A program made the position numbers and the translations under genes. Shown here piece by piece: positions 15,941-61,700 of a stretch of 64,000 nt of DNA; positions within the stretch are counted from its first letter, which is position 1; each line of letters starts with the position of its first letter. Source of the DNA: Prorocentrum cordatum. Taxonomy: Eukaryota. The notes below the pieces were generated by a model. The model was not told where the DNA came from and did not search any database. It saw nothing but the letters and a program-made list of their open reading frames with translations. Location: NCBI GenBank assembly GCA_963575745.1, contig CAUYUJ010000181.1:434001-498000 (forward strand), given 5' to 3'.

Positions 15941-16897
15941 GAAGCTGCATGAACATAAACTGTCGACGGTCCGCGCGGAGTTCTTGGATCTGCGCTGGAT
16001 CCCCGCGCGCCAGGAGCGGCGCCGGAGGCGCCGCCAAGGGGTGCCCAGCGCAGATCCGTGAAATCCGCGAGGAGCTCCGAAGGTCTATGTTGATGCCGTT
16101 TTTCTTCGAGCAGCCTTACACGATCCATGAACGACCGCACATCTCACCGCCGACCCATCTGCACCAGACTTGGGCGTCGCTTATAGGCGGGGGGCGATAC
16201 ATGGGGGGGGAGAGTGGTGCACTTCTCGGGCCCTGTAGGCCCCCTTTGGGGCCCGAAAGGGTCCCTTTCTAGGCGCGCTGCACGGCCCCTCTTCTGCAGC
16301 CCTCGCCGCCCCCCCCAGTTGTCGCTCCCCCCTTACCCAGAGACCCCCGACGTCGTGATGCTTTCAACACGTCGACCCTCAGAGCTCTCCACCCAGTCCC
16401 CTGGAATACCTTTTCATCTTTCGAAGCCGTTGTCTGACGGCCCCGCGGGGGCTGGCGCGGGCTTCGAGGAGGTCGCAAATTAGGACAAACCTCCCGCCAT
16501 GATTTTTGTTGTCATTGCCCGAGGGGGTCAGGTACGCGACGCCCGACAGTCCCACCAGTCCGGCTCGGACCGGTCCTCCTCCTCCCCCTCCTCCTCCTCC
16601 TCCTCTTCCTCCTCCTCCTCCTCCTCCTTCTCCTCCTCCTCTTCCTGGGATCGTCCGAACCCGGTCAATCCAGACCCGGGTCAGCCAGGCCTTGCAGAGT
16701 CCTGCAAGATCCTGCGCCCAAGCGCGGGTCCACGCAGAGGATCCTGCAAGATCCTGCAGGATCCTGCGCCCAAGCCCGGGTCAATGCGCCCCTGGCCCTG
16801 CAGGATCCTGCAAGGTCTGGCGCTCTGGCTGACCCCCGTCTGCACTGACCCCCGTCTCGAGGCTCCCGATCAGACCCCCGCTGCTCGCCGCCGGCTC

Positions 16898-16941
16898 CTG
16901 CTCTCGGCGCTCTCGGCCGCGGCCACGTCTTGCAGCAGCGC
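16898..16941 (-). CDS. Candidate short exon (ALLQDVAAAESAES in phase 0; frame not fixed)
   Basis: GAG|G acceptor, CAG|GA donor. Unique GC-rich island enclosed by an inverted pair of family-I repeats, as is the 47.1 kb exon. Confidence 0.38.
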
Positions 16942-17054
16942 CTCGCGTGCGCAGGGCGCGCCCCCCGCCCCCCCCCCCGGGGGCCCCGCCCCGCGAGCCG
17001 CACGGGCGGGCGCGCGCGGAGCAGGGGTGTACTCACCTGGAGACCCAGACCCCC

Positions 17055-17240
17055 TCGGGTCATGAAAAAAATCACGGCGGCAGGTCTTTCCCTGCTCTCG
17101 GCCCCGGGAGGCCCTCACGGGCCCCTCGGGGCCGGGACGAAATAAACTCGGGACGAAGAGCCGGTCCCAGAGAACGGGCCCCCGGACCGCTGGGGGTCCA
17201 CGTCATGAGAAGTTCGTGGCGTCGGGGACCTATGGGGACC
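17055..17240. repeat. Family I dispersed repeat (about 180 bp). Same orientation at 47435-47605 and 58912-59082; opposite orientation at 16337-16530, 23388-23537, 38632-38705 and 46748-46895
   Basis: Shared GGGTCATGAAA...TTCCCT...TCGGCC.C.GG.GGCCCTCAC...ACTC..GA.GAA...CGCTGGGGGTCCACGTCAT...TG.CGTCGGGG..CT.GGG, or its reverse complement. Copies are clearly diverged. Confidence 0.7.
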
Positions 17241-20139
17241 CCGTTCTCCAACGATGTGGTGCTGGAAACCCTCGCGCTGCGTCAAACTCTCGGCCCTCTG
17301 CGGCCGGCCTCGGGCTCTGGCAGCCTCGAAACCGGCGGCGAGCGAGGGGAAGAACTGAGAAGGAGAAGGCCTCCTCGGAAGGCGGCGGGACTTCGGAGAG
17401 CCCTCGCGCCTTCTGAGAGAAGCGTTGTTTGTGTCCTCGGGGAAGGCTCCGAGAGCTCCTCAGAAGGCCGGTGGACTTCCGAGCCCTCTGAGGAGGCCTT
17501 CTCCCTCTCGCTTCTCCCCCTCTCGGCTACACGCAAGAGGGACCCTGGGTACGAGTGACCTTTGCTGCGCGGCTTCTGGTGGGCCGCGGGGAGGCCAAAC
17601 CCGAGCGCACAAGACGCTGCGACCGCCTCGCGTTGAATCGCTGGGGGGCCCCACTGCGCCCGCACCAAAGGCCACTCCAGCGAGAGGTCACTCTTACGTC
17701 TGGTCGACCCTCGCCCGCCGCCGAATCGAGCACAGACCCTGGGCGACAAGCCGCCCCAGCGGTGGAAGGGGGTCCGACGCTCTGGGGGTGGCGTGCTCGT
17801 CCCGGCGCCCCTCTGGGCTGCCTGCCCCTCCCCACCCCTCCCCTCCCCTCCCCTCGCTCCTCCCCTCCCCTCGCTGCTCCCCTCCCCACCCTCCTCCCTC
17901 CCCTCCCCTCCCCTCCCCTCCCTCCCTCCCTCGGTCCCTCCTCCCTCCCGCCCCTCCCCTCCACAATTGTTCAATATGAAAAAACTCTCCCTCTTCCCCT
18001 GATGGCGTCCGGGTGATGGCCGCGCACCCTCCGCGTACTGTTTTTTACACACAAGATGCCCGGGAAATCCCGGGAAACGACTCTCGCTGAGGCGCCGGCG
18101 TCATTTTTTCCCAAAATGCTGCTCTCGTGAGGCGCCGGCCTCATTTCTGCTCCCGAATCGTTCCGAATCGTGCTCCCGCTGCAGCGTGGGCCTCATTTTC
18201 GGATCGGTGTTTGGCCTCCGTCGTTCAGGATGGCGTTCTCGCCCCAGCGCGGGCCTCTCGCGCGCCCCCGCCCCCCGCCCGCCCCGCACCGCCACCCACG
18301 CACCACGCACGCGCACCACCACCCACTACGCACGCGCGCGCGGAGCCACAGGTCCGCTACGACACGCGTCCGCGGATAGAGAAAATCAGCGCCATGGTAA
18401 GGGATGGGAGGGAGGGGTAGGACGTCAGATATGACGCGAGCGTACCTAGCTTGCCTCCCCCCCCTCCCTCCCCTCCTCCCTCTCTCCCGCCCCTCCCCTC
18501 CCCTCCCCTCCCCTCCTTCCCTCCCCTCCCTCCCTCCCTCCTTCTCAGATCCTTGCTGCATGCGTGAATACGCCCACTTTGCCACCTAGCTGGTCGATGG
18601 CGACCCCATCCTGGGCCTCCCATCGTACCCATCAGAAGCAGTACGAAGTGTACACGTCTGAAGTCAACGTGGACGTCACGTCGCCAGCGTTGCACGGTGC
18701 GCGGCAAGAGTGGGACGGGGCGCACATCCCGCGCGGAGGGTGAAATTTCGCTCTCGCCTGGACGCCGCGCTCAGTTCCTCCGAATTGGGTTCCCGCTTGG
18801 GCGCAGAGCTCATTTTTCGTGGGAGATTTCGTCGGCCGCGGGGTCGCGGGCGAGCGGACGTGTCGCTCTCGCCTCGGCGTCGCGCAGATGTCGCCTGAAA
18901 GCGGCGCTTCTGCTTGGGCGCGTCGCGAATTCATCACTCGCCGAGTGGTTGGGGGCGAGGCCGCGAGAGAGTAGGAGAATGGTCGCCCTCGCGTTTCCAT
19001 ATAGATTTCGCCTGCAAGTGGCGTTCCCGCTCCTGGACGTGGCGCACGTTTTCCGCTGAGTCGCCCGAGAGCGGGAGCAATGCTGCTCCCACCCTAGCGC
19101 CCTACAAGTTGTGCGTGAACCTGGCAGCGGTGCTGCCTCGACAAGGCGCATGCTTCGTCTTCGCCGTGCCAAGCGGAGACTCCGAGACGCGGGAGAAGGC
19201 AGAACATGGTTTTCTCGCCACAGCGTCGCGCAAGGATTTGCCCGCGTCTTTCCCCTCGGCCAGGTCGTCGGAAGCGGAACGGCGCGCGAGAGCCTTCCGT
19301 TCGCTAAGTGAGGACGCGTTCCAGCCCCAAAGCCTGGCTGCGCCACCATCTGGTGTGACTCTTACGTAATGGGAAGGAGGGTAAGAAACGGCAAGGGCCC
19401 AGTGACTCGTTCGACCTGGCTAAGTTGGCCTGTCCTCCTCCTCCTCCTCCTCCTCCTCCTCCTCCTCCTCCTCCTCCTCCTCCTCCTCCTCCTCCTCCTC
19501 CTCCTCCTCCTCCCCCTCCTCTGCCTTCGCGGTGGCTTGACATTCCACCAACCACCCAGAGATCTACACAGCGCCCTCCTCCTGCTCCTCCTCCTCCTCA
19601 TCCTCCTCCTCCTCCTGCTCCTCCTCCTCGCCCTCCTCCTCCTCCTCCTCCCCTCCTCCTCCTCCATCACCTCCTGCTCCTGCTCCTCGGGGACCCTCTT
19701 CCTGTAGCTGCCGCTGTCGGCTTTGGTGTTCGTCTGAACGAAGCCACCCTTCCCTCCCCCCTGTCGGGGGCGGTCGCCCCTGGAGGGGGGCGCTGGTCAA
19801 ACCTAATTCGGTTCTCCGCAAGAAGAAAAACGGCAGAGACCCTCCAAGGCACGAGGGCCTTGGAAGGCCATGCCGACACCTTTCGAGCGGGGCGCGGCCA
19901 GCGAACGTGGCCGAGGATGGACGGAAAGGGGGGAAGGAGGCGAGGGCAACCGTGGAAAGCCGCTCACCCCTACGAGGCGGAGGACCTGTAGGGCGAGGGA
20001 GGGCAGTGGGCAGGCGGCAAACGTTGCAGCGAAGAGGAAGCGGGGGTCGGCTGGAGGTGGCCGAGAGGCAGCGGTGAAGAGCCGGCGGTGGCGTGCGGTC
20101 GCCCTGGCCATTACTTCCGCCCATTGCCCAAGGTGTGTG

Positions 20140-20850
20140 CCTCCTCCTCCTCCTCCTCCTCCTCCTCCTCCTCCTCATCCACGTCCTTCTCCTCCTCCTC
20201 CTCCTCGTCCTCGTCCTCGTCCTTCTCCTCCTCCTCCTCCTCCTCCTCCTCGTCCTCCTCCTCCTCCTCCTCCTCCTCTCATCATCATCCCCTCCTCCTC
20301 CACCACCTCCGCCTCCTCCTCCTCCTCGTCCTTCTCCTCCTCCTCCTCCTCCTCCTCCTCCTCCTCCTCCTCCTCCTCCTCCTCTTGCCCGCCATCTACC
20401 TCCGTGGTGGCTTTGCCCGGCGCTGGCCATCCAGAAGAGGTCTCGCACCGCGCCCTCTCGGAGCGCCGCAAGGGCGGCGGAGGCCTTGGCCCGACGGAGA
20501 AGCACCCCCGTGCTTGGCATGGCCCGTCTTGAGGCCGTCACGCGCGAAGGAGGAGCAGGAGGAGACTGGAGGAGGAGGAGGAGGAGGAGGAGGAGGAGGA
20601 GGGAGGAGGAGGAGGAGGTGGAGAGGAGGAGGTGGAGGAGGAGGAGGCTGGGGAGGAGGAGGAGGCGAGGGGAGGAGGAGGAGGAGGAGGAGAGGAGGAG
20701 GAGGAGGAGGTGAGGAGGAGGAGGAGGAAAGGGAGGAGGAGGAGGAGGAGGAGGAGGAGGCGGAGGAGGCGGAGGCGGAGGAGGGAGGATGAGGAAGAGG
20801 AGGATGAGGAAGAGGAGGGGGAGGAGGAGGAGGAGGAGGAGGAGGCGAGG
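20140..20850. repeat. (CCT)n and (GGA)n microsatellites, representative of more than 25 such tracts in the window
   Basis: Direct inspection. Others at 6350-6440, 13610-13760, 19433-19680, 25780-25912, 44735-44850, 62512-62700, 63580-63945. Confidence 0.95.
20400..20484 (-). CDS. Candidate exon (ASAALAALREGAVRDLFWMASAGQSHHG)
   Basis: Unique GC-rich island between (CCT)n and (GGA)n tracts. AAG|G acceptor, GAG|GT donor; phase fits after 23591. Confidence 0.4.
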
Positions 20851-23590
20851 TCCAGTCTCGCAGCTGCTCGTCCACGGCCCTGGGCCGTCACGCGCCAAAG
20901 AGGAGCAGGAGGACTGGAGAGCCTCCCTCTCCATCCCCTCTCGCACCCCGAGGCGGGTCGGTGGGCGGGGGGGGGGGGAAGGGGGCAAGGCTTTTCGCCC
21001 GAGATTTCTGTTGTTCCCATCGTACTCAAGGACCACATCCCAGAAAAACAAGTTCGAGCACCTGGAGGAGTATGGAAACGGTGTCGAAGGAGTATCGCAT
21101 GCCAGGGCCCGACACGTGAAAACAAACCGTCTAGTTTCGGTATTTTCTTGGTGTTCGAATTTCTTTCTGGTGGCCAAGGCTTAACTAGGTTGGGACATCA
21201 CAACCCGAGACGTCCTCCCTATGAATGATCTTGAAGCTTGGAAGTTGCAGCAGCTTCACTGATCGAGGGCGGGTCCTTCTCAAAATGTGGCGCTCGCCTC
21301 ATCGCCGCGCACATTCGTCGTAAAAGCTTGCAAGAGCTTCACGGATGGAGGACGGGCGGCTTTCAACATGCGGCTCTCGCCTTCGAGCCGCGCACATTCG
21401 TCTTAACAGTTTGCAGGGGTTTTACAGATGGAGGGCAGCGCACGTTCAAGATGTGGCTCTCGCCGTTGCGCCACGCAGATTCGTCGCAACGGTTTCACAT
21501 CAGCGTCATCGACTATTGTGGCTGACGTCCCGGAACTCATGTTTTGGAACGATTTGGGATTGGCAGGGCGCGGCAGTCACGTTGATTCGCGGTGCTGACG
21601 TTCCAGGAACGGCGTTCTGGCACGATGTAGGGTCGTCAGATGGCAACAAGAGAGCTGATTCGCGGCGTCGAAGCCCCGGGAACGGTGGTTTGGCACGGCT
21701 GAAGATGTTCAGACGGTCGTCTTCCAACGGGGCTCTTCCCGCGGTGCAAACAGATCCTTATATGAGCCTGTGAAGAGGGAACTTGGAGGGGTGGTGTATT
21801 GCAACATCGTTGATGGGTCTTCGGTTTGCACTGGTCCTCCTCCTCCTCCTCCTCCTCCTCCTCCTCCTCCTCCTCCTCCTCCTCCTCATCGTCACCATTA
21901 TCCTCCTCCCTCGCCTTCCCTGCTCTTGTCCACCCTTCCTCCCTCTCTCCCCCCTCCCTCCCCCCTTCCTCCCTCCCCCCTTCCTCCCTCCCCCCATCCT
22001 CCTGTCTAGTCGTTTTGAATGTTCTGCTAGCTGCAGCGCTGGGCCGGCAGGCCGACAGCTGACAGGCCATCGGCTTCCACAGCTTCGCAATCCCAAATCC
22101 GCGCCTCACCGACTCTCCCCCCCCCTCCTTCTCCTCCCTCCCCCCCATTCTCCTCTCTCCGTCCTCTGCTCCAGGCGAGGACTGAGGGAAGGGAGAAGAC
22201 ACCCCCAGGCGTGCACCCACCTCCCAGCAAACAGATCGAGACCGCTGGCTTGGCACCGCGATATCTTTTGGCCCTCCCGAGCACCACCGCCGGCTCGTAC
22301 ACCGCGTCGCGGAACGCTGCAGCGGCCTCTGTGGAAGAAGAACTGCGTACAATGGGGGCCCATGCCAAGGAACACCCCGCTTGCCTCCAGTTTGCCATGG
22401 GTTTCTTGGGTTTCGATGGTTTTGCTATGGAAAGCGAGACGTTCCCACACCAAGAACCAACGGACGTCCGGGGGGCTCAGGGCTGGGTTTCTTGTGGAAG
22501 GTTCATTGTGGACTGGACTCCACTGTAAACATGAACTGTCGGAGGACCAGGCGGATTCCTTTGATCGGCGCTGGTTGCCCCTCCCCCTGGCGCGCGGAGC
22601 ATGCCAGGAGCAGCGCCGCAGGCGCCGCTAAAGGGGGCCCAGCGCAGATCCAAGAGATCCGTGCGGACCTCCCGAAGTTGATGCTTACGTTAGCGGCGAG
22701 CGCGGGGGGAAACGAGAAGGGGCGGGCCTTCTCAGAAGGCTCGGAAGTCCCCCGGGCCTTCCGAGAAGTGTCCTAAGCCTCCCCCGAAGGCCAACAACAA
22801 ACTCCTCGGAAGGCGCGAGAACCTCTGAGCAGTCCCGCCGCCTTCTGAGAAGGCCCTCTCCTGCTCACTCACCCCGCCTTCGCTCGCCGCCGATTGCGGT
22901 CGGGAGCTGCTGCATCGAGTGTCGCGGAGGCGGCCCCGGCGACAAAGCTGTGCCCTGCAAGCGGACAGCGTGCCGCTCCTCCCCTCGGGGTGGGCGGCCG
23001 GGAGCCGCGCGGGGCCGGGAGGCCTGCGGGCGATCACGCGGACCGCGCGCCGCGCCGAAGCGTGGAGGGCCACCACGGGCGCGCTCCACGACTCGAGACA
23101 CACGACCCGTCACATCGAGGCGCGCATGCGTGTTTCGTTTCAGGCGTCTGCGAGTACACCCTGCGAAATGCTTAAGAAATCATGGGTTAAGAAATTCATA
23201 GTCTCAGAATTTGAATAAAAACTCCAAATTTCTACCAACTTTGTAGGATTTACATTGAAACATTAAGAATAAGCGAGACTCTGGCCGAAAATTTTAGTTT
23301 TCTTAAGCATCGCCTAAGGTGTAGGCACTTTGCGAGCAGTGGCGCGCGCTCGGCGAGAAAGCCAACCTTCCCGACCGTGTTTGCCGTTCCCAGACCCCCG
23401 GCGCCGTGAATATTTCGTGACGTGGACCCCCAACAGTTTGCACCCCTTCCACGGGACCGGTTCTTCGTCCCGAATCGTTCCTTGACGGTCCCGAGGATCG
23501 GTAAGGGGCCCCCAGGGGCCGAAAACAGCAAAACATGCCCCGTCCTGTTGGCCTAACTCGAGGGGGTCTGGGTCGTTTCCCCTTCGATGC

Positions 23591-23780
23591 CTCGTGGCGT
23601 GGCGAGCCAGGCGCCGCGGGCGTCGCGCCGGGCGAGGCCAGGGCCTCGGCCAGCTCGGCCCAGTTCTCGCCGCGGTCCTCCTCGCACAGGGGCGAGCTCG
23701 CGTGCGCCAGGAACTGCCGCGCGAGCGAGGCGAGCGCGCGGTCCTCGGAGAACCCCGCGTTCGCGAGCGCCCAGAGCATC
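23591..23780 (-). CDS. Exon of helical-repeat gene (MLWALANAGFSEDRALASLARQFLAHASSPLCEEDRGENWAELAEALASPG...)
   Basis: Acceptor CCCCAG|G in the correct phase; repeat motif MLWALANAG. The 3' boundary (GAG|GC at 23591) is less certain. Confidence 0.78.
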
Positions 23781-25242
23781 CTGGGGTCAGGTCGGGCATG
23801 TCCCCCTACAGGCAGATGTTGGCGGAAATCAAAAATAGCCAAGATTAATCAAAATAGACTCAACAATTATCAAAGAGTCGTCCCCATATGATCTTTTGGA
23901 CTATTTTTGAGTACTCCTCCTGTAGAGGGACATGCCCGACTTAATCCTGGGGGGAAGCGGCTCGTCCGCGCGGCCTATGCCAGAAGTGAAGCTGCAAGTG
24001 GGATGGAAAGGTTGCGGGGAGCTGCCCGAGCACGGGAGACGGGTATAGGTCTCTGGGTGCGAGCGGGCTGCCCTCACGAGCCGATGAGCCCACATCTGTC
24101 GAACCAGCCATGTTCACAGGCGCATTCGTTGCAGCTGCCCCCGCCCACTCAGTAGGCTACCGGAGGCCCTCGACTGGAGCGCACAGAAAAGCACGACCAC
24201 TGAACGCATCGGAACTGGACGCCACTGGAAGGAGGATGGGCACAAACCCTGTGTGCATGCCGTATCCAGCTTTGCTTCTCCTCCTCCTCCTCCTTCTCTG
24301 CTTCCTCCTCATCATCCTCATCATCATCATCATTCGCCTCCCGTGCCCCGCGTTCTTCACGTCTGCCATACCTCCTTCCCCTTCTCATCCCAATCCGCAC
24401 ATATCTCTATCCCTCCCACATATTTACATATACATATACATACCAATGTGCATAGGTATATACATGTACACAGATATGAATATATGAATATATATTCATA
24501 TATGTATACATATATGTATATATACATGTGTGTGTAAATTTCCGTCGGTCCCCCACCCCACCCAAGCGACCCCCCAAAGCGCTCAAAGCACGAAACCGCA
24601 GAACCGGTCGCTTCACGAAGCTGCACAATCGCTTTGAAACTTGTAGTGGTTATTGCGCAACCTGCTCATCAGCCTGCAATTCTGGCTGGCGAACGGCTTG
24701 CCACAATCACCCGTTCTAATGTGTTCCCCCAGGGGTCCTTAGGACAGATTCTTTAATGAGACATCCTTGTTAGAAACTCCAGACCAGACCGGCCTTTCCC
24801 TAGTACCCCGAACTAGAAGAATCCGTACTAAGGACCCCCTACTTGAGACATCCTGGCGAAAGAACCCTTACCAAGGAATCTGGACAAACCAAACATCCCG
24901 GCCGCCGGACCCAGAATGCTAATATATCTCATGTGTCCCTCGTGTTGTTCCATTCGCCTTGGCGGAGGCTCTCCTCCCGCTCTCTGTTGCGGCCCTCCTC
25001 CTCCTCCTCCTCCTCATCATCATCCTCTTCCTCCTCCTCCTTCTCCTCCTCCTCCTCCTCCTCCTCCTTCTCCTCTCCTCCTCCTCCTCCTCCTCTACCT
25101 CCCTCCTCCTCCTCCTCCTCCTCCTCCTCCCTCCTCCTCCTCCTCCCTGCCTCCTCCTCCTCCTCCTCCTCCTCCTCCTCCTCCTCCTCCACCTCCTCCT
25201 CCTCCTCCTCCTCCTCCTCATCATCATCATCATCATCATCAG

Positions 25243-25277
<35 letters not shown>

Positions 25278-27769
25278 ACATCATCTTCATCATCATATTC
25301 ACCATCCGTCAACTCCTCCTTCTCGTCCTCCCTTCTCCTCCTCCTCCTCCTCCTCCTCCTCCTGTCCTCCTCCTCCTACCTCTTTCCTATTTCCTCCTTC
25401 TTCTCCTCCTCTCCTCCTCCTCCTCCTCCTCCTCCTCCTCCTGCTCCTCCTCCTCCTCCTCCTGCTCCTCCTCCTGCTCCTCCTCGTCCTCCTCCTCCTT
25501 CTCCTCCTCCCTCCTCCCTCCTCCCTCCTCTATCCTCCTGTCCCCCCCCCGTCCCCCTTGAGCGCAGCGAACCGGCACGCAGCGCGCGCCCGCGAGGCCA
25601 TGCGGGCCGAGGCGGAGGCGCAGCGCAGGCGCCATGGAGGGAGCGGTTTGCTTTTGCTTCCCAGTTTCAGGATGGCCCTTGTTCAGTATCGGGCCCCACT
25701 TGGGCCCCACAGGACGCGAGCGCGGCGACACCGCCAATGCCACCGTCCCACCACCTCTCTCCTCCCTCCTCCCCCTCCCTCCTCCCCCCTCCTCCTCCTC
25801 CTCCTCCTCCTCCTCCTTCTCCTCCTCCTCCTCCTCCTCCTCCTCCTCCTCCTCCTCCTCCTCCTCCTCCAACTCCTCTTCCTCCTCCTCCTCCTCCTCC
25901 TCCTCCTCCTCGCCATCCTACTCATTCTCCCTCTCTTATCCGCCCCTTGCCAGTTGTCCCCCTTCACCTCCCGTGGTTCCTGTTCGGGGCCAGCCGATTG
26001 TCCTCGGCACCGATGCGGCCACCGGCGGCATGGGCCCGTTCTCCGATGGCCGGATCGCGAATCCGTTGGGACGGCCCCACGGGCGATGCCGTTGAGACAA
26101 GTCCGCGAGCCGCTGGGGCGCGGGAGCCAGCCGTTGGGACAACCCCTCAGGTCTCGAGCTAATCGCGGCCGCGCTCAGACGGGAGGCAGCTTGAAGTCCA
26201 GCTCTGCCGCGATCTGTTCCGCCTCATCCCTGGAGTTCACCCCCTGTGCCTGGCCGCCGTCGTCCTCCTCAATTCCTGTTCCTCCCATTCTTCCTCCCCT
26301 GATGGGTCGAGCGAGTGGCCGCTGGGATTGGCCCACGAAGGCTCACATCTCCTTTTCGTTCTGGGAGCCTCAGCAACGACAGCAACACCGATCAAAGAAA
26401 CCCTCGCCCAGGCCATATTCAAGCCTCAGGAGCCCGAACATGCCAACAATGACGACAAAAACAAAGTTTGCCGACGACCAGCTCGGCATACACCACGCGG
26501 ATTGCCAACAGTAAGTGCGAGCGCCCCAGGGAGGGGTGGCCAGTGAGGGCCAGTGGCAGGCCAGCTGAGGGTCGCACTCCCAATCAATGGGCAACCTTTT
26601 TCCGGACGCGGGCCGGAGACGCCCCCGCGACCCACTCCCGGACGAAGCTCCCGCTGGACCCTGCCTCGACGCCAAATCGGCGCTATCTCATCGACTCCCA
26701 GACGCTACTCGACGCGAGTCGGCGCTAGAGACGGAATTCGGAGGGTACGCCAGGCCCCATGCTTCGCCACCGAGACATCGAAGCCGAATCGGCGCATGCT
26801 GGCCGAACTTGGCAGCGAACCGGATCGATCGGAGCGCATTTGGGCCCTGCCTCGGGGGGCTCCCGCTGCCGAGGCTGCGGACGGAGCCTGGCGGCGCGCA
26901 CCGCGGACGGAGTTTGGCGGCGCGCACCCGGGGGGGGCAAGGGGGGGAGGAGGGGGGAGCGTGTCAGAAGCAGGGGTGCTTCCAGGAATCGGGGGGGCGT
27001 GGGACTCGGGTTTGGGGGACTCGGGCTGGCCCGACGGGGCCATCACGACAAGGACGCGGCCCAATCTGAAACTTGACGCGAGCTCCCGCAGCAGACATCC
27101 CGGGACAACTGGACCGTCAAAAAGCAGGGCGGGCTCGTCAGAAAGCATAGGCGCACCCGAGTTCCGGCGTACGCGAGCATTACGTTTCCCTGAAGGAATC
27201 CTTCCCCCCCTCTCCCCCCGCTCCCCTCTGCTCTGGCGCGTGCCTTTGGTTGACCCAATAGATGTAGGGCAATTGGATTGCAAATGCATTGCGCCAGAGG
27301 CTTGTATCGCCTTGTTTTGCAGCGAATGCATTGCACGCGAAAATCCAGCAATACACTTGCGCACCGGAATATATTGCACGCCCCAACTCGATTGCAACCC
27401 CACAAATTGGAGGGGTGCAAAAACGCCCCTACCCTGGGTTACAACTTTGTGGTCTGTGCTCCCAGGGGCCAGAGAGCCGCCAGGACGCCGCGCGACACGC
27501 GCGATATGCAGGGCTTATCCTGTCAGCCCACAGGCAGGAGGCTCAGCGCACAGCGCTTCGTAAACCAGGGCAGGGGCGTTTTTTTAACGCCCTTGGCAAA
27601 TCTACTGTGCCAAATCTATTGCGCCACCCCCTTTCGGCTGGACCCCCTCTTTTTGGTCAACCAAGAGTGCCCGCGCGGTCCTCTTTGTCCTCCTCTTTGT
27701 CCTCGCGCTGTCCTCGCGCCCTCCTCTTTGTCCTCGCGCTGTACCAAGAGTTTGGACCCCCTCTTTGTC

Positions 27770-27900
27770 CTCGCGCTGTCGCGCGGCGAGAGGTCCCCGC
27801 GCCGCTCGGCCTCCGCCGCCAGCGCGCCGAAGAGCGCCTCGTCGCGGCTGCCCAGCGCCGCGGCGGCCCACGCCAGCCCCGCCAGCTTGCCCGAGGCGAC
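27770..27900 (-). CDS. Exon of helical-repeat gene (VASGKLAGLAWAAAALGSRDEALFGALAAEAERRGDLSPRDSA)
   Basis: Clear repeat unit LAGLAWAAAALG..DEALF.ALA. Acceptor GAG|G, donor AG|GA (phase 2); joins the 23780 exon as LSPRDSA-R-MLWALA. Confidence 0.8.
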
Positions 27901-28459: not shown

Positions 28460-28499
28460 CTCGCGCGCGCCCGGCGCGGCCCGGGACAGCACGCCGCTC
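28460..28499 (-). CDS. Candidate 40-bp exon (SGVLSRAAPGARE)
   Basis: GAG|G acceptor and GAG|GC donor. It bridges the phase between the 32.7 kb and 27.9 kb exons (ALCR-SGVLSRAAPGARE-VASGKL). Confidence 0.45.
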
Positions 28500-31411: not shown

Positions 31412-31439
31412 AACACACGCACACACACAGACGCACACA

Positions 31440-49730: not shown

Positions 49731-49762
<32 letters not shown>

Positions 49763-50860
49763 GCGGCGTCGTCGTCTCGTGTTCCTCGCGCTCCCATCGT
49801 GGCCGCACTGTGTGGCACGTCCCACGTCATGAGAGCAAGCGTGGTCTCGGCTGCTTGAGCCGCGCAGGCAGCGTTCTGCCGCAGCTCGGCCCTCGTGCCT
49901 CACGCCGGCCTGAGGGAATCGGGCTGCAGTTCTGCCGGGGGGGTGGGCGCATGAACTCATAGCTAGCAGCACCATGACGATTGAGGGGCCCGGTTGTGGG
50001 ACGTGCGGTTTCTGTTCTGCTGATCTTCGGGCTGAGCTGCCCTGGTCGTGTTCCAAGCCCCTGCGTGATAACGAGGAGAGAGTACCTAGCGTATCAGTGA
50101 TCGGTTTTCTCCGAATGCCAGAGATATGCTGTGAATGCAGTGCCCTTTAGTTTTGATCTTTCTTATGACACCGTCATGTTGCTATTCCTATTCCTATTCC
50201 TGACATTCACCTCCGCATCTCTCTCCCATTCCTCCTTCTCCTCCTTCTCCTCCTCTTCCACCTCCTCCTCCTCCTCCTCCTACAACTCCTCACCCTCCTC
50301 ATCACCATCACCCTCACCACTTCTTCCCCCTTCCCCCCACCTCCGCATCCATGACCATGACCCATCGCATCCCCCTCCTCGCTCGCCCCCTCCCCTCCCG
50401 TGCTCCGCCCCCCGAGGCCTTCTGGGAGGCACCCTCTGGCCCGAGCTGGGGCCCCCCGCCGCGAGGCAGTGCTGGGCCGTGCCGCCCTGCCCGCATCCCT
50501 CGACCCGCTCCCCTAATTGCTCTCCGCATCCCGGCCCTTCGGGGGCGCCCTCGTCGCTGCGCTCTGGCAGGGCGCGGCTCGCACGGCTGCCCCGGGTTCG
50601 CCCCCGTCCTCCGCCCCCTTCCTCGCACGACGCCGCCGCCGCCGGCGTGCTCCGCCCCCCCCCCTCCCAAAAAAAGAAGCAAGCGCGAGGAGCCGCGAAA
50701 ACCCGCACCGACCCCGACAAAACACTTCCACGCCGCGGCCCGCCGGCTCCGCCTGGGCCGACGTGCCCACCGCCGCTCGACGCTCGACGCTCGACGATCG
50801 ACGCCGACGACGGCGACCTCCGCTGGCACGGCCACGCTGCAGCTGCGGGCAGGCCCGGTC

Positions 50861-50954
50861 CTCCTCGAGCCAGCCCACCCGGCCGCCGTCGGGGCGCAGC
50901 CGGGAGAGCCCTCCGAGGGTGTGCGCGAGGGCGGCTGGGGAGAGGTCCTTGTGC
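50861..50954 (-). CDS. Exon of helical-repeat gene (HKDLSPAALAHTLGGLSRLRPDGGRVGWLEE)
   Basis: Acceptor TGTCAG|G, phase-compatible with the previous exon (VSH-R-HKDLSPAALAHTL). Probable donor GAG|GA at 50861; alternative downstream donors exist. Confidence 0.75.
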
Positions 50955-51139
50955 CTGACAGGGGGGCCCCAGGGCCGGGGGGGGGACGGAGCGCGAGGGA
51001 GGGAGGCACGGGGGAGCGTGGGGGAAGGCAGCAGAACGGGGGGACGGAGGATCGAGGAGAGGCGGGGGGGAGGACGAGGCGAGGCTTTGACGGAGCAGGG
51101 AGGGACGGATGGAGGGGAGGATGAGAGGGGGGAGGGCGC

Positions 51140-51864
51140 CTGTGCGAGACGTGGGGCAGCAGCGCGGCCAGGGCGCGCTCTCTCCGCCGCCGCAGCCGCC
51201 CCATGGCCCACACCAGGCTCGCCAGGCACTCGGGGCGCAGCCGGGCCCCGCGGTCCGCGGCCTCGTGCAGTACGGCGTCCGCGGCCCCGCTGCCGCGCAT
51301 GCGGGCCGTCGCGGCCGCGCACACGACCCGCACCAGGGCCCGCGTCCCGAACGCGGCGGCCCTGGCGGCCGCAGCCTCCGCCACGGCCTCGACGACCTCG
51401 GGGCGCCCGAGCCGCGCGAACGCCTGCGCGAGCAGGGCGGCCTCTGGCGCTCCGAGCGTCGGGGCCGCACCCGCGGCGCCCGCCGCGACCGTGCTGGCGG
51501 CCGGCGAGCCGCTCAGGGACATGGCGCCCAGCGCGGCCGCCAGCCGCGCCAGGTCCTCGGCGGCCACGCTCCCGACCCTGTCCAGCAGCGCCCCGAGCTC
51601 CGCGGGCGGCGCGGCCCGGGCGTCCCAGGTGAAGCCCAGCTCCGCCGCCCGCCCCAGGCAGTCCGCGACGCCGCGGCCCTCGAGCTGCCGCGGGCTGGAC
51701 CGCACCGCGCCCCAGAGCTGCTCCAGGGTCGCGGGCGCCCGGGCGCCCCAGGGCGGCGCGGCGCGGGCAGCAGGCGCGGGAGGGCCGCGGCACGCGGGAG
51801 CCCAGCCCGAGGGGTCGAGGGGCGGGTCGGGGATCGAAGGGGGGGGTCGGGGATCTAGCGTCAT
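51140..51864 (-). CDS. Large 5' exon of a helical-repeat (OPR/RAP/RESC6-like) protein gene; 5' boundary uncertain
   Basis: Non-repetitive, GC3-rich frame ...LGAPEAALLAQAFARLGRPEVVEAVAEAAAARAAAFGTRALVRVVCAAATARMRG...LRPECLASLVWAMGRLRRRRERALAALLPHVSH. Ends CACAG|GC (phase 2) at 51140. The ATG at 51864 may or may not be the start. Confidence 0.8.
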
Positions 51865-52152
51865 CGGGTTGGAACGCTCCTGCTCCCACTCATCCTCCTG
51901 CTAGGCTTCCTCCTCCTCCTCCTCCTCCTCCTCCTCCTCCTCCTCCTCCTCCTCCTCCTCCTCCTCCTCCTGCTCCGCCATCCACGAACAGCATGACCAC
52001 CATTTCTTCAACTTCTTCCAGCATCGTCATCAGCAGCAACATCATCATCAGCAACATCTGCATCAGCAGCATCATCACCAGCACTAACATGAGCAGCATC
52101 TTCCTCCTCATCCTCATCCTCCTCATCCTCATCCTCATCCTCATCCTCATCC

Positions 52153-52203
<51 letters not shown>

Positions 52204-52522
52204 ACATCACCAGTATCAACATGAGCAGCAGCTGCATCATCATCATCATCATCATCAGCATCATCAGCATCATCAGCATCATCAGCATCATCAGCATCAT
52301 CATATTCATCAGCAGCATCAGCATCATCAGCATCATCAACAGCAACATCATAATCATCATCATCATCATCATCATCATCACCATCATCGCCATCATCAGC
52401 ATCATCATCGTCGCCAGCATAATCAGCATCATCAGCAGCAGCATCAGCAGACTCAACATCATCAATCATTAACTAATTGTCATACTCACCACAACAAGTG
52501 TCATTGTCAGCCTCACCATCAA

Positions 52523-52554
<32 letters not shown>

Positions 52555-52597
52555 GCATCAGCATCATCACCATCAGCATCAGCATCACCATCATCAC

Positions 52598-52669
<72 letters not shown>

Positions 52670-52674
<5 letters not shown>

Positions 52675-54685
52675 CGCGCGAGGCCGCGGCTCGCGACGAG
52701 GACCTCGAGCACGTGGCCAGCGGCGCAGCCGCCCGCGGCCTCCGGCGGCGGCCGCTCGCCGCCGAGGCGACCCCCCCGAGCAGCGGGCGCGGTGGTCCAG
52801 CGCCCGCAGCGCGGCCCCTCGGCGGGCTCCGGCAGGTGGCCCGCCGGGCCGCCCTCGGCCCGCCGCCGTGCCGCTCGGGAGCCTGCCCCGCGGGGCGCGG
52901 CGGCCGCGGCACGGCGCGGCACCTCGCCCGGAGGTGCCGCGCCCTTGCAGCGGAGAGGCGCGCCGCCATCGCGGGCGACGAGGTGCTGCAGGCCTTCGCC
53001 GACGCGGCCGAGGCGTCCGGCAGCGAGGACCCCCGCTGCCCGAGGGCGCTCGTTCCCCGACCGGGTGGCCGCCCTCCCGCCGCCGCTGGAGGCCGAGGAG
53101 GTGCGGTGGAGCAGCGGTCACGGCTACGCGGCCTTGGCGGGCGCCAGCGTCCTGTACACCGACGGCTCGGCGATGCACGGCAAGGCGGGGTCGCCCGAGG
53201 TGCGCGCTGGCTGGGGGCTCGCGGCGCTGCAGGTCCGCGGTGCAGCGCACGGCGCCTGGGGCTGCGTCCCCGCCCACCTGCCGCAGGACGCGAACGCGGG
53301 CGAGATCCTGGCTGCAGCCCGCGCCCTGCGCTGGGGCCTGCCAGGCGCGGACGGCATCCTCGAGATCAGGACGGACTGCAAGCTGCTCATGACGGGCTTC
53401 GCTGCGGGCAAGGCCTGGTGCTGTGCGTGGGACCGCCCGTACCTGGAGGTGTGGCGCGAGTTCTGGCAGGCCGTGGACGGCTTCGGCGGACAGCAGTGCG
53501 TGCGGGTCACCAAGGTGAAAGGGCACGCCACGCTCCGCTCGGTCCGCGACGGCTGCACCAGGATGGAAGACTACGAGGGCAACCACGCCGCGGACGGCTT
53601 CGCCAAGAAGGGCGCAGGGCTCCACCCCACGAGCGAGGCGGCGGTGGAGCGCATCGAACTGGCCGACGCGATCGCGGTGGCGACGGCCCGCTGGCTCGGC
53701 GAGGCGCTGCAGCTGGGGAGCGCCGCCCTCACGGCGGCCGACGGCGCGGACGCGGGCGCGGCGGAGTCCACCTGCTGCGGGCGCAGATGCGGGCGGCGGG
53801 GCGCCGCGCGCTGCCGTGACGGCGGGCCAGGCTGCAGACGCTGGCCCTGCGGCGCGCACGGCACGGCGGCCTCGGACGTGAGCGGGACGCGCTGGCTCTG
53901 CGACGCCTGCGCGGGCCGATCGGACGGCACGCCCGGCCCCGGTGGGCCGGCAGCGGCCATGGCGGGGAGCGCCACCGGTGGGCCGCCGGGGCCCCAGACG
54001 GCGGGGCGGAAGCGCCAGGCCCCTGGCCAGGAGGCGGATGCGCGGCGCGGCCGCGCGCGGACCACCGCGAGTGCGGGCCGACGAGGCGCCGAGGGCGCGG
54101 GAGCAGCCGCCGCAGCCGCGGTGGCAGCAGCGGCGCTGGCGGCCCAGGCCCGCGGAGGAGCCCAGCACGCCGACGGCGACGCGGAGGTGAGCGGCGAGGC
54201 TGCAGGCGCCGAGGGTGCGCAAGGCACCGAGGCGGCGGGCACCCGCGCCCGCGCTGGTGGAACGTGAACTTCGACGAGACGCACCGCCTCTGGTCGAAAG
54301 GCGAGGGGCCGCGCCGCCTCGTCTTCTGCGCGGTCTGCGGCTGCTACGCCGACGGCGCCCGCGTGGTCTCGCTCCGCGGCCCGTGCGCGGGCGGGGCCAG
54401 CGCCCGCAAGGACGCCGCGCTGAGGAGGATGCGGCAAGGGCGGCACCCCACGCGAGGGGGCGCTGGCGCCGAGCTCGGGGGCGGCCGCCCCGAACCGCTG
54501 AGGCGCCCGCGCAGCCGCTCGCGAGGGCGCGGCTCGGAGGCGGGAGGCCCGAGCCGCTGAGCGCTACAGAGCGCTCCCCTCCCCCCCCTCCCCTCCTCGG
54601 TGGGGCCTGAGGGCTCCGTGGGTGTGCACGAGAATTTATAACGGCTGCGCCGAGCACCGCTCCCAGACCGTAGTGGCCTTACCCG
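52670..54685 (+). mobile_element. 5'-truncated non-LTR (LINE-like) retrotransposon fragment with RNase H and Cys/His motifs
   Basis: RNase HI motifs YTDGS...AGWG...NAGEI...IRTDC...KVKGH...GNHAADGFAK. An upstream frame has C..C...HLARRC; a downstream frame has ETHRL...FCAVCG...LRGPC. Frameshifts near 53050 and 54260. (CAT)n/(CAC)n on both flanks. Confidence 0.85.
53146..53625 (+). CDS. Ribonuclease H type I domain of the retroelement
   Basis: All four acidic catalytic residues (D in TDGS, E in GEI, D in TDC, D in AAD) and the His of KVKGH lie in one open frame. Confidence 0.85.
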
Positions 54686-58700: not shown

Positions 58701-61700
58701 CGCCGCCCGCCGAGCAGCATCGCGGGGCGGCGCGCTCGGCCCGGGCCTCCGACGACGCGGCTCGTCCCGGCCATCCTGAGGTGCCCAGAGCCCTCGGGGC
58801 CACGGGAGGAGGAGGAGGAGGAGGAGGAGGAGGAGGAGAAGGAGGAGGGGGAGGAGAGGGAGGAGGAGGAGGAGGAGGACGAGGAGGAGGAGGAGGAGGA
58901 GGAGGAGGAGGAGAAAACACGACGGCAGATGTCTTATCTATATGTTCGGCCTCCGGGGTCCCTCGCCGGGTCTCGGGACCGTCCAGAGACGACTCGGGAC
59001 GAAGAAAGAGCGGGTCCCAGGGAGTGGGTCGACAGCTGTGGGGCAGACGCTGTGAGCAAAAACATGGCGTCAGGGGACTGGGGTGTTGGTTCCTCGTTTT
59101 GAAATGACAGCGCCCGCGTCTCCTCCTCCTCCTCCTCCTCCTGCTCCTGCTCCTGCTCCTCCGCCTCCTCCTCCGCCTCCTTCTCCTTCTCCTCCTCCTC
59201 CTCCTCTTCTCCTCTCCTCTCCTCCTCCCTCGTCCCTCCTCCCTCCCCCTATACCTGCCTCTGCCCTCCGCGCGCACTTGTCAGAACACCCCTCACACGT
59301 GGCCCCATAGGGAGCTCCACTGAAAAACAGATTCACAAGCGCGGTACTCCCAACTGCAGATGGTTGGGTCCTTCGCCAAAACTGCTTCAATCCAAGCGTC
59401 TCTCATCTACGTCGGCCCTTCGGAAGCCGCTCCCGAGCCCCAGGGCCGTCAAACATGGATCCCCGATCAAAACTTGGCCTCTGAAGGGGTCGGGACCTCT
59501 GGAGCCGCCCCTTGAACAAATGATATCGTCAGGTGTCTGGATCGTCTGCGCGCAAAAAGGACCCTAGGCAAGAGTGGCCAATGGTGCGCGACTTTCCGAC
59601 CGTGAGCGGCGGTGCGGCGTGCTTGGCTTTGCCCCCCCCCTGCAAAACCGGCGAGCCGCGCACTGAAGGTCCCTCCGGCGAAAGGCCACTCTCACGTATA
59701 GCCTGAGGTCAGGCGTGCCCCCCTACATGCGGATTTTGGGCGAAACATGGAACAGTCTCAACCAATATGCAAAAATACGCAAACATACCACAAATCCTCT
59801 CATTACTACTTTTTCGCTATTTTTGAATGTTCCTCCTGCAGAAGGACGCGTCCGACTTGCGCATCGCCGCCTGGATGTGCGCGCGCCGGGTGCCGCACGC
59901 GTGCACGCGCCGCGCCCCTTTGCGCTGGCGCGCGCCGCGCCGCAACGCCGAGGGGGGGCGCCCGCGAGGCGAGCGGTGCAGATCGAAAACGTGCGGCGCC
60001 AGCCCGCCCGCCGGCCGCCGAAGTAGCACTGGGCGGGCCACACGCGCGCGTCTCCGCGCGCGCAGGTAGAAGCCCTTCCAAAACCGCACTGGTGCCAAGA
60101 GCAGGTCAAAGCAGATGTGTTGACACGTGCAGGGTCCGTGTGGCTTCGTCACGGAAGGATGCCAGGCTGTCGAATGCCTGAGGGCGTGCGCCTCCTGATC
60201 ATCCTCATCTGCAAGATGGCCAGCATTATCGCAAGCCTCATCGTTGGCATCGCGCTCGCCATGATCATCATCATCAGCGACAACATCATCATCATCAGCA
60301 ACATCATCATCACCATCGGCATATTCAACATAATCATCATCGACATCATCATCATCAGCATCATCATCACCATCACCATCACCATCACCATCACCATCAC
60401 CATCACCATCACCATCATATGTATAATCGTCCTCTTCATCATCATCAGCATCGCCAACATCATCACCATCGTGTCAGCATTGTGAATGTTATCACTGTCG
60501 ATCATCACCATCAGCTTCATCACCATCACCATCACCATCAACATCATCGACATCATCCCCACCGTCGTCATACATACATATACATGTGTGTATATATACA
60601 CCGTCATCGTCATCGTCATCGTCGTTTTCGCCGCCCAGTTGGGTGTTCCCACCAATTTGCGAGCGGGCGGGGTGTGATGCTTGCACGAACGTTGGAGGGG
60701 GTCACGTGCGGATACGAGCATTAATTGCTCCACATAATATGTAACACATGTGGCTTACATCAAGAATACACAAACGTACAATGTTTGGACCCATGCTGGC
60801 CCATAACCATACACAAGTCCATGTGAAACACATGACACAAGCGGAAGCTTCCAGAGCATTGGATGCCAGTCCGCCAGTTCGCGACGCGCCCCAAGGCGAA
60901 CTCTTGGATCCCGGAAGCAGGAGGGCGCAGAATCCCCACGAAGACCCGAGGCCCCCCCGACGCCCCCCCCCTCTCCAGCGACGGACGGGCGAGCCCTGCA
61001 TGCTGCCGCGGCAGGAGCACGCGAGCGACGACCCGAAGCGGGCCCCAGGCGGGAGGACGCAGCGACCCCGCGCTGCGGCTCACGAGGGCCAGCGGCGCAG
61101 AAAACCCCAACTCTGGAAGCGAGGGCGCTCACGCGCAGCCCGATGCGGGCAGCCTGCGCGCGGAGACGCGTGCAGTCGAGCCCGCCTCTCTCCGCTACAC
61201 GCTTTCCGTCGGCAGCGAGGCGGGACGATGCGCGCCAGCGTGGCGGCGATGCAGGGGCACTACACAGCGAATTGGCCGGCACGCAGGAGGAGGGAAGGGA
61301 AAGAAAGGGCCCACCTCTTTCGGCTGCACGCAAAGAGCGACCCCAACGCAAGAGAAAAGCGACCTCAGGTGCGCGACTCTCTCGGGGGCCCGCCGGGAGT
61401 CCCAGGCGACGAGCGCGCACGACGCTGCCACCGCAGCGCCTTCGGCCACCCGGGGGCCCCTCCTCCTCCTCCTCCTCCTCCTCCTCCTCCTCCTCCTCCT
61501 CCTCCTCCTCCTCCTCCTCCCTCCTCCCAGACCTCCCCCCTTCTCCTCCTCCTCCTCCTCCGAGTGTCCCCGCACCACAGGCCACTCCGGCGAGAGGAGG
61601 AGGAGGAGGGGGAGGAGGAGGAGGAGGAGGAGGAGGAGGAGGAAGAGGAGGAGGAGGAGAAGGAGGCGGAAGACGACGACGAGGACCCCTGAGCAGGCGC

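What the first reader, a model, noticed from the sequence alone, without database searches (positions are those of the whole stretch)
16337..59082. Family I repeat orientation tracks its side of the exon; inverted pairs bracket single exons
Seen: 46748-46895 and 47435-47605 form an inverted pair around the 67-bp exon at 47121-47187. Likewise 16337-16530 and 17055-17240 enclose the candidate exon at 16898-16941. Unpaired copies follow the same rule. The left-type orientation occurs left of exon 23591-23780 (23388-23537) and left of a GC island at 39.0 kb (38632). The right-type orientation occurs right of a GC island at 58.6-58.8 kb (58912). Inference: pairing across an exon could loop it out (exon definition, skipping or circRNA), while pairing between opposite ends of an intron could bring splice sites together. 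Only 7 copies support this, and three of the adjacent exons are candidates.
Basis: partly seen in the sequence, partly recalled or inferred. Interest (0 to 1): 0.7.

Follow-up and report, generated by a model that had tools for sequence, protein, structure and literature searches.

The report
Old intronic MITE family in a dinoflagellate gene
The repeat is an old, decayed miniature transposon scattered through the long introns of a Prorocentrum cordatum gene, and its link to exon sides is real for one tiny exon but is no stronger than chance overall.

Summary
Family I is real. It is a roughly 190-bp element with 11-12-nt terminal inverted repeats (CCCAGACCCCC ... GGGGGTCTGGG). The window holds 9 copies, not 7, and they are 64-81% identical to each other, so it is an old MITE-like family.

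The window encodes a predicted Prorocentrum cordatum protein (P0008, 572 aa) exactly. The gene lies on the minus strand in at least 13 exons (52969-16896) with dinoflagellate splice sites.

The 67-bp "exon" at 47121-47187 and the 39.0-kb island lie inside introns of this model. The 58.6-58.8-kb island lies outside the gene.

The pair at 16.3/17.0 kb does bracket a real 46-nt exon. Both arms of the pair at 46.7/47.4 kb sit in intron 3.

The orientation rule holds for 5 of 6 genic copies (P about 0.11). Two close inverted pairs give P about 0.02, a post hoc figure.

The paired arms could form RNA duplexes (-45 and -33 kcal/mol against about -13 for shuffled arms). They are no better matched than arbitrary copies, ranking 21st and 33rd of 72. 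They also compete with 724 other inverted repeats in the two flanking introns.

No RNA data could test exon skipping or back-splicing. The arrangement is most likely incidental.

The parts
16336..16532 (+). Family I copy, antisense to the gene, in the intron after exon 13 and 363 nt downstream of its donor. Left arm of pair 1.
   Evidence: nhmmer E 3.8e-40. TIRs are visible, with TA on both flanks.
17044..17237 (-). Family I copy, sense to the gene, in intron 12. It ends 102 nt upstream of the exon 13 acceptor. Right arm of pair 1.
   Evidence: nhmmer E 1.6e-40; sequence; exon map.
23389..23572 (+). Family I copy, antisense to the gene. It starts 18 nt after the exon 11 donor in intron 11 and has an AACG direct repeat on both flanks, offset by 1 nt.
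   Evidence: nhmmer E 2.7e-47; sequence read.
38634..38830 (+). Family I copy, antisense to the gene, in intron 6, 1109 nt from exon 6. Its 3' end is decayed.
   Evidence: nhmmer E 1e-30; alignment.
46749..46950 (+). Family I copy, antisense to the gene, in intron 3, 592 nt from exon 4. Left arm of pair 2; its 3' end is decayed.
   Evidence: nhmmer E 1.4e-39.
47424..47603 (-). Family I copy, sense to the gene, in intron 3. Right arm of pair 2.
   Evidence: nhmmer E 1.4e-46.
58905..59085 (-). Family I copy upstream of the modelled gene. Its 3' end is replaced by (CTC)n.
   Evidence: nhmmer E 9.1e-36.
59380..59543 (-).
   Evidence: nhmmer E 1.3e-9 with a profile that did not include it; E 6.9e-29.
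61890..62040 (-).
   Evidence: nhmmer E 6.1e-19 with a profile that did not include it; E 7.2e-31.
16896..16941 (-). Exon 13 of the P0008 gene (46 nt, or 44 nt if the donor is CAG|GA at 16898). This internal micro-exon is bracketed by pair 1.
   Evidence: tblastn 100% over aa 557-571; the rebuilt CDS equals P0008.
22285..22326 (-). Exon 12 (42 nt, in frame). It lies between the copies at 23389 and 17044.
23591..23780 (-).
46157..50860 (-). Intron 3 (4704 nt, GA..AG). It holds both arms of pair 2 and the claimed 67-bp exon.
47121..47187 (-). It is a GC island inside intron 3, absent from the P0008 model, would shift the frame, and has atypical boundaries.
16896..52969 (-). The P0008 gene span inside the window, exons 1-13. 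The last 5 coding nt lie in an exon 14 at 13280, 8754 or 8696, or outside the window.

Best explanation
Family I is an old family of miniature inverted-repeat transposable elements (a non-autonomous TIR DNA transposon of about 185-200 bp) in the dinoflagellate Prorocentrum cordatum.

Six of its nine window copies sit inside the long introns of one minus-strand gene, a predicted protein that UniRef names 'FAST kinase leucine-rich domain-containing'. The other three lie upstream of that gene.

The copies inserted independently and long ago. Their orientations, the two convergent pairs and their nearness to some exon ends are by-products of insertion into intron-dominated DNA, not a splicing device. 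In the pre-mRNA, opposite-sense copies can base-pair in principle, as any inverted repeats can, but nothing shows that this pairing is selected or has an effect.

Shown: the family, its TIRs, the copy list, the exon map and the predicted duplex energies. Inferred: that the element transposes as a MITE, and that the arrangement is neutral.
For: Family and anatomy:
- 9 copies.
- 11-12-nt TIRs are readable at both ends in 3 copies (16336, 17044, 23389) and, more degenerate, in 47424; an environmental copy, L008, also shows them.
- Two of the 200 long ORFs scanned reached a Pfam curated cut-off (RNase_H, and a glycine-zipper match in a tandem-repeat translation), and neither lies in a Family I copy.
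- No Rfam family and no tRNA matched.
- There is no conserved RNA structure: RNAalifold gives -6.8 kcal/mol with a covariation term of +0.76.

Age and independence:
- Pairwise identity is 64-81%. Partner arms, at 72% and 76%, are no closer than the family norm.
- The sequences between the arms of the two pairs share no homology; the best blastn hit is 16 nt, E 0.007.

Host:
- The RNase H ORF's five hits are all P. cordatum.
- P0008 is encoded exactly by the window.
- Its splice sites are 7 GC, 4 GA and 1 GT donors, and 11 of 12 acceptors are AG|G. This matches the species statistics in PMC10666404 (passages).

No excess over chance:
- Side rule 5 of 6, P = 0.108.

No co-adaptation:
- The real pairs rank 21st and 33rd of 72 combinations.

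Competition:
- 724 inverted repeats of 40 nt or more lie in introns 12 and 13.
Against: - Two close convergent pairs among 6 genic copies is nominally unusual (P = 0.021), as is one pair bracketing an exon (P = 0.022).
- Two copies lie very near splice sites: 18 nt from the exon 11 donor (P of a minimum distance this small = 0.079) and 102 nt from the exon 13 acceptor.
- Predicted duplexes are well above shuffled controls: -45.5 against -12.3 +/- 3.7, and -33.2 against -13.4 +/- 5.7 kcal/mol.
- Target-site duplications, a defining MITE trait, are clear in only one copy (AACG at 23389) and possible in one more (TA at 16336).
- No autonomous partner was sought.
- The gene model is a prediction, so exons of other isoforms could exist.
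Confidence: 0.75

Rival explanations
1. Functional RNA bridges. Opposite-sense Family I copies pair in the pre-mRNA and change splicing of the micro-exons. The pair at 17044/16336 would loop out exon 13. The better-matched, splice-site-adjacent pair at 23389/17044 would bring the exon 11 donor to the exon 13 acceptor and favour skipping of the in-frame 42-nt exon 12. This is essentially the first reader's idea.
For: - Pair 1 flanks a real internal exon.
- Inter-arm binding is -45.5 kcal/mol for 17044 x 16336 and -73.7 kcal/mol for 17044 x 23389.
- Those two copies lie 102 nt and 18 nt from the relevant splice sites.
- Nominal P = 0.02 for the pair statistics.
- The species paper reports differential exon usage and intronic RNA editing in P. 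cordatum (passages).
Against: - Partner arms are no better matched than random family members.
- The second pair brackets no modelled exon.
- Hundreds of competing inverted repeats lie in the same introns.
- The copies are decayed, with 3' ends lost in 4 of 9.
- All statistics are post hoc on 6 copies.
- 4 of the 6 genic copies are antisense and 2 are sense, so there is no fixed polarity relative to transcription.
Confidence: 0.1
2. Insertion-site preference. The transposase favoured sites near existing copies or near exon ends (local hopping, open chromatin or structured DNA). That would give clustering and exon proximity without any RNA-level role.
For: - 3 adjacent copy pairs lie less than 700 bp apart among 9 copies in 64 kb. 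My rough estimate of the chance expectation is about 1 (coordinates).
- At least 2 close pairs among the 6 genic copies: P = 0.08.
- Minimum distance to an exon of 18 nt: P = 0.079.
Against: - Neighbouring copies are not each other's closest relatives, which argues against recent local hopping.
- The excesses are weak.
Confidence: 0.1
3. Composite or foldback element. Each inverted pair is the pair of long terminal repeats of one larger transposon of about 0.9 kb, and the enclosed DNA is its interior.
For: - Both pairs are convergent, with 3' ends facing inward.
- The inner distances are similar: 528 and 515 bp by the nhmmer bounds, or 511 and about 474 bp by the TIR bounds.
Against: - The two interiors share no homology (best hit 16 nt, E 0.007).
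- One interior contains a genuine coding exon of the host gene.
- Each arm has its own short TIRs at both ends.
- 5 of the 9 copies are solo or in tandem.
Confidence: 0.03
4. Introner. Family I creates spliceosomal introns on insertion, like the introner elements reported in dinoflagellates.
For: - P. cordatum introns are reported to be enriched in introner elements (PMC10666404, passages).
- Family I is MITE-like and lies in introns.
Against: - None of the 6 genic copies forms an intron. They sit inside introns of 1264-5343 nt or more, 18-1267 nt from the nearest splice site.
- The element ends read CCCAG...GTCTGGG, that is, acceptor-like at the 5' end and donor-like at the 3' end. This is the wrong order for a self-contained intron.
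Confidence: 0.02

Closest known systems
MITEs (miniature inverted-repeat transposable elements, e.g. Stowaway/Tourist-type non-autonomous TIR DNA transposons). The names are from general knowledge, not from a call.
   Same: Short (about 185-200 bp), non-coding, short terminal inverted repeats, many dispersed and diverged copies, a small subterminal hairpin, and a location in genic or intronic DNA.
   Different: Target-site duplications are not consistently readable: AACG at one copy and possibly TA at another. The superfamily and the autonomous partner are unknown. The copies are old (64-81% identity).
Dinoflagellate introner elements (Roy et al., bioRxiv 10.1101/2020.10.14.339549, passages read; Dougan et al., PMC10666404, passages read)
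   Same: Non-autonomous DNA-transposon-like repeats in dinoflagellate introns, and the same host species as one of the reports.
   Different: Introners make up the whole intron and supply or recruit its splice sites from the element end or the target-site duplication. Family I copies are embedded in much longer introns and supply no splice site in this gene.
Inverted Alu (IRAlu) pairs flanking circularised or skipped exons in primates (recalled from general knowledge; no paper on this was read here)
   Same: Opposite-orientation copies of one repeat family lie in the two introns flanking an exon, with predicted duplex stability far above shuffled controls.
   Different: Here there is only one such case, around a 46-nt exon. 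The arms are only 72% identical, and there is no back-splice or skipping evidence. Nothing comparable for dinoflagellates appeared among the 8 titles listed in my one search.
Intronic self-complementarity or 'RNA bridges' that bring distant splice sites together (recalled from general knowledge)
   Same: Copies at 23389 and 17044 are complementary in the transcript and lie 18 nt after a donor and 102 nt before an acceptor.
   Different: They span two introns and an exon, not a single intron. They show no conservation or covariation, so the geometry may be coincidental.

Membership tests
MITE (non-autonomous TIR DNA transposon) | Short length (under about 600 bp) and no coding capacity | tested here: met
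   Copies are 151-202 bp. Two of the 200 ORFs of 109 aa or more reached a Pfam curated cut-off (RNase_H, and a glycine-zipper match in a tandem-repeat translation), and neither lies in a Family I copy.
MITE (non-autonomous TIR DNA transposon) | Terminal inverted repeats | tested here: met
   CCCAGACCCCC at the 5' end and GGGGGTCTGGG at the 3' end in copies 16336, 17044, 23389 and, more degenerate, 47424, and in L008. The 3' end is decayed or lost in 38634, 46749, 58905 and 59380, and the 5' end is lost in 61890.
MITE (non-autonomous TIR DNA transposon) | Target-site duplication of fixed length | tested here: inconclusive
   AACG on both flanks of 23389-23572, offset by 1 nt. TA on both flanks of 16336-16532. 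No clear repeat at 17044. The other copies have decayed ends.
MITE (non-autonomous TIR DNA transposon) | Many dispersed copies in the genome | tested here: met
   9 copies in 64 kb, and 2 of 10 metagenome loci carry real copies. The genome-wide count is not testable because no genome is held.
MITE (non-autonomous TIR DNA transposon) | An autonomous element with matching TIRs | not tested
   No transposase was found in the window, and no genome was available to search.
Introner elements | The element (with its target-site duplication) makes up the intron, and the splice sites lie at or within its ends | tested here: not met
   All 6 genic copies lie inside introns of 1264-5343 nt or more, 18-1267 nt from the nearest splice site.
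Inverted-repeat pairs that drive exon circularisation or skipping (IRAlu-like) | Complementary repeats in both introns flanking the exon | tested here: inconclusive
   Met for pair 1 around exon 13. Not met for pair 2, where both arms are in intron 3.
Inverted-repeat pairs that drive exon circularisation or skipping (IRAlu-like) | The cross-exon duplex is favoured over competing pairings | tested here: not met
   The real pairs rank 4th and 6th of the 8 possible in-transcript combinations and 21st and 33rd of all 72. Introns 12 and 13 hold 724 other inverted repeats.
Inverted-repeat pairs that drive exon circularisation or skipping (IRAlu-like) | Back-splice or exon-skipping junctions in RNA | not testable with these tools
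   No RNA holder was listed. The laid runs are contigs with only small shares of the stretch.

The most novel reading that the evidence does not exclude
In P. cordatum, complementary copies of an intronic MITE may act as RNA bridges that tune inclusion of micro-exons. The copy 18 nt after the exon 11 donor and the copy 102 nt before the exon 13 acceptor (predicted -74 kcal/mol) would favour skipping of the in-frame 42-nt exon 12. The pair around the 46-nt exon 13 would favour its skipping, which changes the C-terminus. The resulting intronic dsRNA could also be a substrate for the RNA editing reported near differentially used exons in this species. That would be a dinoflagellate counterpart of Alu-driven exon skipping and circRNA formation, and a reason why very long dinoflagellate introns tolerate or retain such repeats.
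Probability: 0.07. Interest if true: 0.6.

Novelty: new member of a known kind. Interest (0 to 1): 0.2.

Why it matters
As it stands this is ordinary: an unnamed, decayed MITE family in the repeat-rich introns of a dinoflagellate gene.

It is useful as annotation. It ties the window to P. cordatum. It gives a checked 13-exon map with GC, GA and GT donors. It shows that GC islands are weak exon predictors here, since 13 of 88 islands overlap exons.

It would matter only if a genome-wide test showed that repeat orientation or pairing is tied to exon ends or to exon usage. Dinoflagellates have unusually long introns, non-canonical splice sites, and reported differential exon usage and RNA editing, and how their splice sites are paired is poorly understood.

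Tried and rejected
- The look-up of sequencing runs on 43000-50000 listed no RNA holder, only 6 rows with shares of 0.05-0.07.
- Read laying on 38900-58899 with X1, X2, X4 and X5 gave mostly repeat-derived contigs. Nothing informative covered 47121-47187.
- Rfam at gathering thresholds found 0 matches, and ARAGORN found 0 tRNAs.
- Pfam on 200 ORFs of 109 aa or more gave two hits above a curated cut-off: RNase_H, and a spurious glycine-zipper hit in a tandem-repeat translation. A GC3-periodicity scan flagged mostly trinucleotide microsatellites.
- The protein atlas on the RNase H part gave no taxon.
- The metagenome scan with a 19-mer returned 10 loci, of which only 2 carry the family. Two viral-contig scans returned 0. 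That is too few copies for any orientation test.
- Pfam on P0008 found no family at E 0.01 or better, although a precomputed PF26188 tag and a UniRef name exist.
- Composite-element idea: rejected, because the interiors are not homologous.
- Local inverted duplication: rejected, because partner arms are not closest relatives.
- Structured RNA gene: rejected.
- Earlier scan notes held nothing on this genome or family.
- I did not search for a gene upstream of 53 kb. All frames of the 58.5-58.8-kb island are open and of low complexity, so the three upstream copies remain unplaced relative to exons.
- One literature search on circRNA or back-splicing in dinoflagellates listed 8 papers. None of the titles concerns dinoflagellate circRNA. 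This was a single search and does not show absence.
Full report
**What the window is.** The window is 57-73% G+C in 2-kb bins and is full of trinucleotide microsatellites and interspersed repeats. It has no tRNA or Rfam match. Among 200 ORFs of 109 aa or more, the only genuine Pfam domain is an RNase H in 52477-54267 (+). The five relatives of that ORF (54-68% identity) are all Prorocentrum cordatum proteins.

A protein-like stretch at 44563-44700 (-) hit P0008, a 572-aa P. cordatum "unnamed protein product" that UniRef names "FAST kinase leucine-rich domain-containing". tblastn of P0008 against the window gave 13 collinear minus-strand blocks that are 100% identical within their exonic parts. 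Solving each junction gave 13 exons, and the rebuilt CDS translates to P0008 exactly. So the window is P. cordatum DNA.

The exons are:

| Exon | Coordinates (minus strand) |
|---|---|
| E1 | 52969-52830 |
| E2 | 51694-51140 |
| E3 | 50954-50861 |
| E4 | 46156-46097 |
| E5 | 44685-44584 |
| E6 | 40019-39940 |
| E7 | 36704-36584 |
| E8 | 32793-32681 |
| E9 | 28499-28460 |
| E10 | 27900-27770 |
| E11 | 23780-23591 |
| E12 | 22326-22285 |
| E13 | 16941-16896 |

The last 5 coding nt lie in an exon 14. Candidates are at 13280, 8754 and 8696. If the exon 13 donor is instead CAG|GA at 16898, exon 14 lies outside the window.

Donors are G|GC in 7 introns, G|GA in 4 and G|GT in 1, and acceptors are AG|G in 11 of 12. 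This fits the published species figures of 51% GC, 24% GA and 25% GT donors, 80% AGG acceptors and a mean intron of 4.7 kb (PMC10666404, passages).

**The repeat.** A profile built from them found two more, at 59.4 kb and 61.9 kb, both on the minus strand. A nine-copy profile run with --max found nothing further.

Extending the alignment shows that the unit runs from CCCAGACCCCC to GGGGGTCTGGG, an 11-12-nt terminal inverted repeat, with a small subterminal hairpin. Copies are 64-81% identical over aligned columns. Four of the nine have lost the 3' end and one has lost the 5' end.

One copy has a clean AACG direct repeat on both flanks, offset by 1 nt. Another has TA on both flanks. The rest are unreadable.

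A 19-mer scan of metagenome contigs returned 10 loci. Two of them carry the family: L008 holds a full copy whose 3' TIR is tandemly repeated, and L006 holds a partial copy. There is no coding capacity and no conserved RNA fold (-6.8 kcal/mol, covariation term +0.76). This is the anatomy of an old MITE.

Two anchors are correct to the base or nearly so: 23591-23780 is exon 11, and 16898-16941 is exon 13. Three are not supported.
- 47121-47187 lies in intron 3. It is absent from P0008 and would shift the frame. It has an AG|C acceptor and a C|GC donor, unlike the gene's real sites.
- The 39.0-kb island is intronic.
- The 58.6-58.8-kb island is upstream of the model. It is open and of low complexity in all minus-strand frames.

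GC islands are common, 88 in the window, and 13 of them overlap exons.

**Geometry against the true exon map.** The gene is on the minus strand, so + copies are antisense in the pre-mRNA and - copies are sense.

| Copy | Strand | Position relative to the exons |
|---|---|---|
| 23389-23572 | + | starts 18 nt after the exon 11 donor |
| 17044-17237 | - | ends 102 nt before the exon 13 acceptor |
| 16336-16532 | + | starts 363 nt after the exon 13 donor |
| 38634-38830 | + | 1109 nt from exon 6 |
| 46749-46950 | + | intron 3, 592 nt from exon 4 |
| 47424-47603 | - | intron 3, 1267 nt from exon 4 |

Pair 1 therefore truly brackets an internal 46-nt exon. Pair 2 brackets nothing in the model.

The exception is 46749.

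In 40,000 random placements of six copies in these introns with random orientation:
- 5 or more of 6 agreeing with the rule: P = 0.108.
- At least 2 close inverted pairs: P = 0.021.
- At least 1 such pair bracketing an exon: P = 0.022.
- A minimum exon distance of 18 nt or less: P = 0.079.

These are post hoc looks at six objects. None would survive correction for multiple tests.

**Could the arms pair?** Thermodynamically, yes. The net inter-arm gain is -45.5 kcal/mol for pair 1 and -33.2 for pair 2, against -12.3 +/- 3.7 and -13.4 +/- 5.7 for dinucleotide-shuffled arms. That follows from their being diverged copies of one family.

Selection for pairing predicts that partner arms should match better than non-partners, and they do not. 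The real pairs rank 21st and 33rd of 72 forward x reverse-complement combinations. Among the 8 combinations possible in this pre-mRNA they rank 4th and 6th.

The best positioned and better matched duplex is 17044 x 23389, at -73.7 kcal/mol. It would juxtapose the exon 11 donor and the exon 13 acceptor across the in-frame 42-nt exon 12. That is the basis of my "novel case".

Against any special role, introns 12 and 13 alone contain 724 inverted repeats of 40 nt or more. The longest ones listed lie in (CTC)n/(GAG)n microsatellite tracts and are 75-91% complementary, and some of them also span exon 13.

**Alternatives.**
- Composite transposon: excluded. The interiors of the two pairs share no homology, and one interior holds a host exon.
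- Local inverted duplication: excluded by the identity matrix.
- Introner status: not met. No copy constitutes an intron or supplies a splice site. Introners as described for dinoflagellates make the whole intron (passages).
- Mild insertion clustering cannot be excluded.

**What could not be done.**
- No genome is held.
- No RNA run was listed.
- The single read-laying run covered 38.9-58.9 kb with contigs only.

In that call, two X1 contigs with zero mismatches stop at modelled exon boundaries (51138 and 44684) and have further letters that lie on nothing there. I read this as spliced RNA that supports the E2/E3 and E4/E5 junctions. That is an inference, because the run's kind is not on record.

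**Verdict.** The object is a new, unnamed member of a well-known kind.

Noticed in passing
window 44357-44560 (with relatives at 722-886, 5039-5229, 13944-14117, 16005-16107, 22526-22689, 28000-28185, 39193-39392, 49365-49545): This is a second, palindromic (long-TIR hairpin) MITE-like family of about 200 bp. A 492-nt contig of run X1 matches 44097-44356 and then 44561-44684 with no mismatch, so it lacks exactly this 204-bp copy. A GAT repeat sits at the junction and the boundaries are not GY..AG. This could be a presence/absence polymorphism, a reverse-transcription or assembly jump across the hairpin, or unusual excision.
   Followed up: partly
window 52477-54267 (+): This is a retroelement-like ORF with an RNase H domain (E 9e-10). 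Its closest relatives are 54-68% identical P. cordatum proteins. The modelled first exon of P0008 (52969-52830, minus strand) lies antisense inside this ORF, so the 5' end of the gene model may be repeat-derived.
   Followed up: partly
window 16896-52969 (-): This is the complete exon map of a 572-aa P. cordatum protein (P0008), with micro-exons of 40, 42, 46 and 60 nt. Exon G+C is 78.5% against 61.9% for the gene span. Pfam finds no domain in P0008 at E 0.01 or better, despite the UniRef name.
   Followed up: yes
window 10017-11108: A tandem array of an 86-bp unit, about 11-12 copies at 86-96% identity, lies downstream of exon 13.
   Followed up: no
window 33608-34213: A 12-bp tandem repeat array lies inside intron 7. 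Its translation gives a spurious glycine-zipper Pfam hit.
   Followed up: no
window 35503-35732 and 58331-58560: This is a young repeat: 230 bp at 96.5% identity between the two sites, and each site is itself a tandem or inverted duplication of a unit of about 115 bp.
   Followed up: no
L008 640-760: In an environmental Family I copy, the 3' terminal repeat (GGTCGAGGGGGTCTGGGGA) is reiterated about four times in tandem.
   Followed up: no
window 13600-13760, 16560-16650, 19430-19660, 20140-20850 and many others: Long (CTC)n and (GAG)n tracts on both strands give hundreds of near-perfect inverted repeats within single introns and across exons. These are far more numerous than the Family I pairs.
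   Followed up: partly
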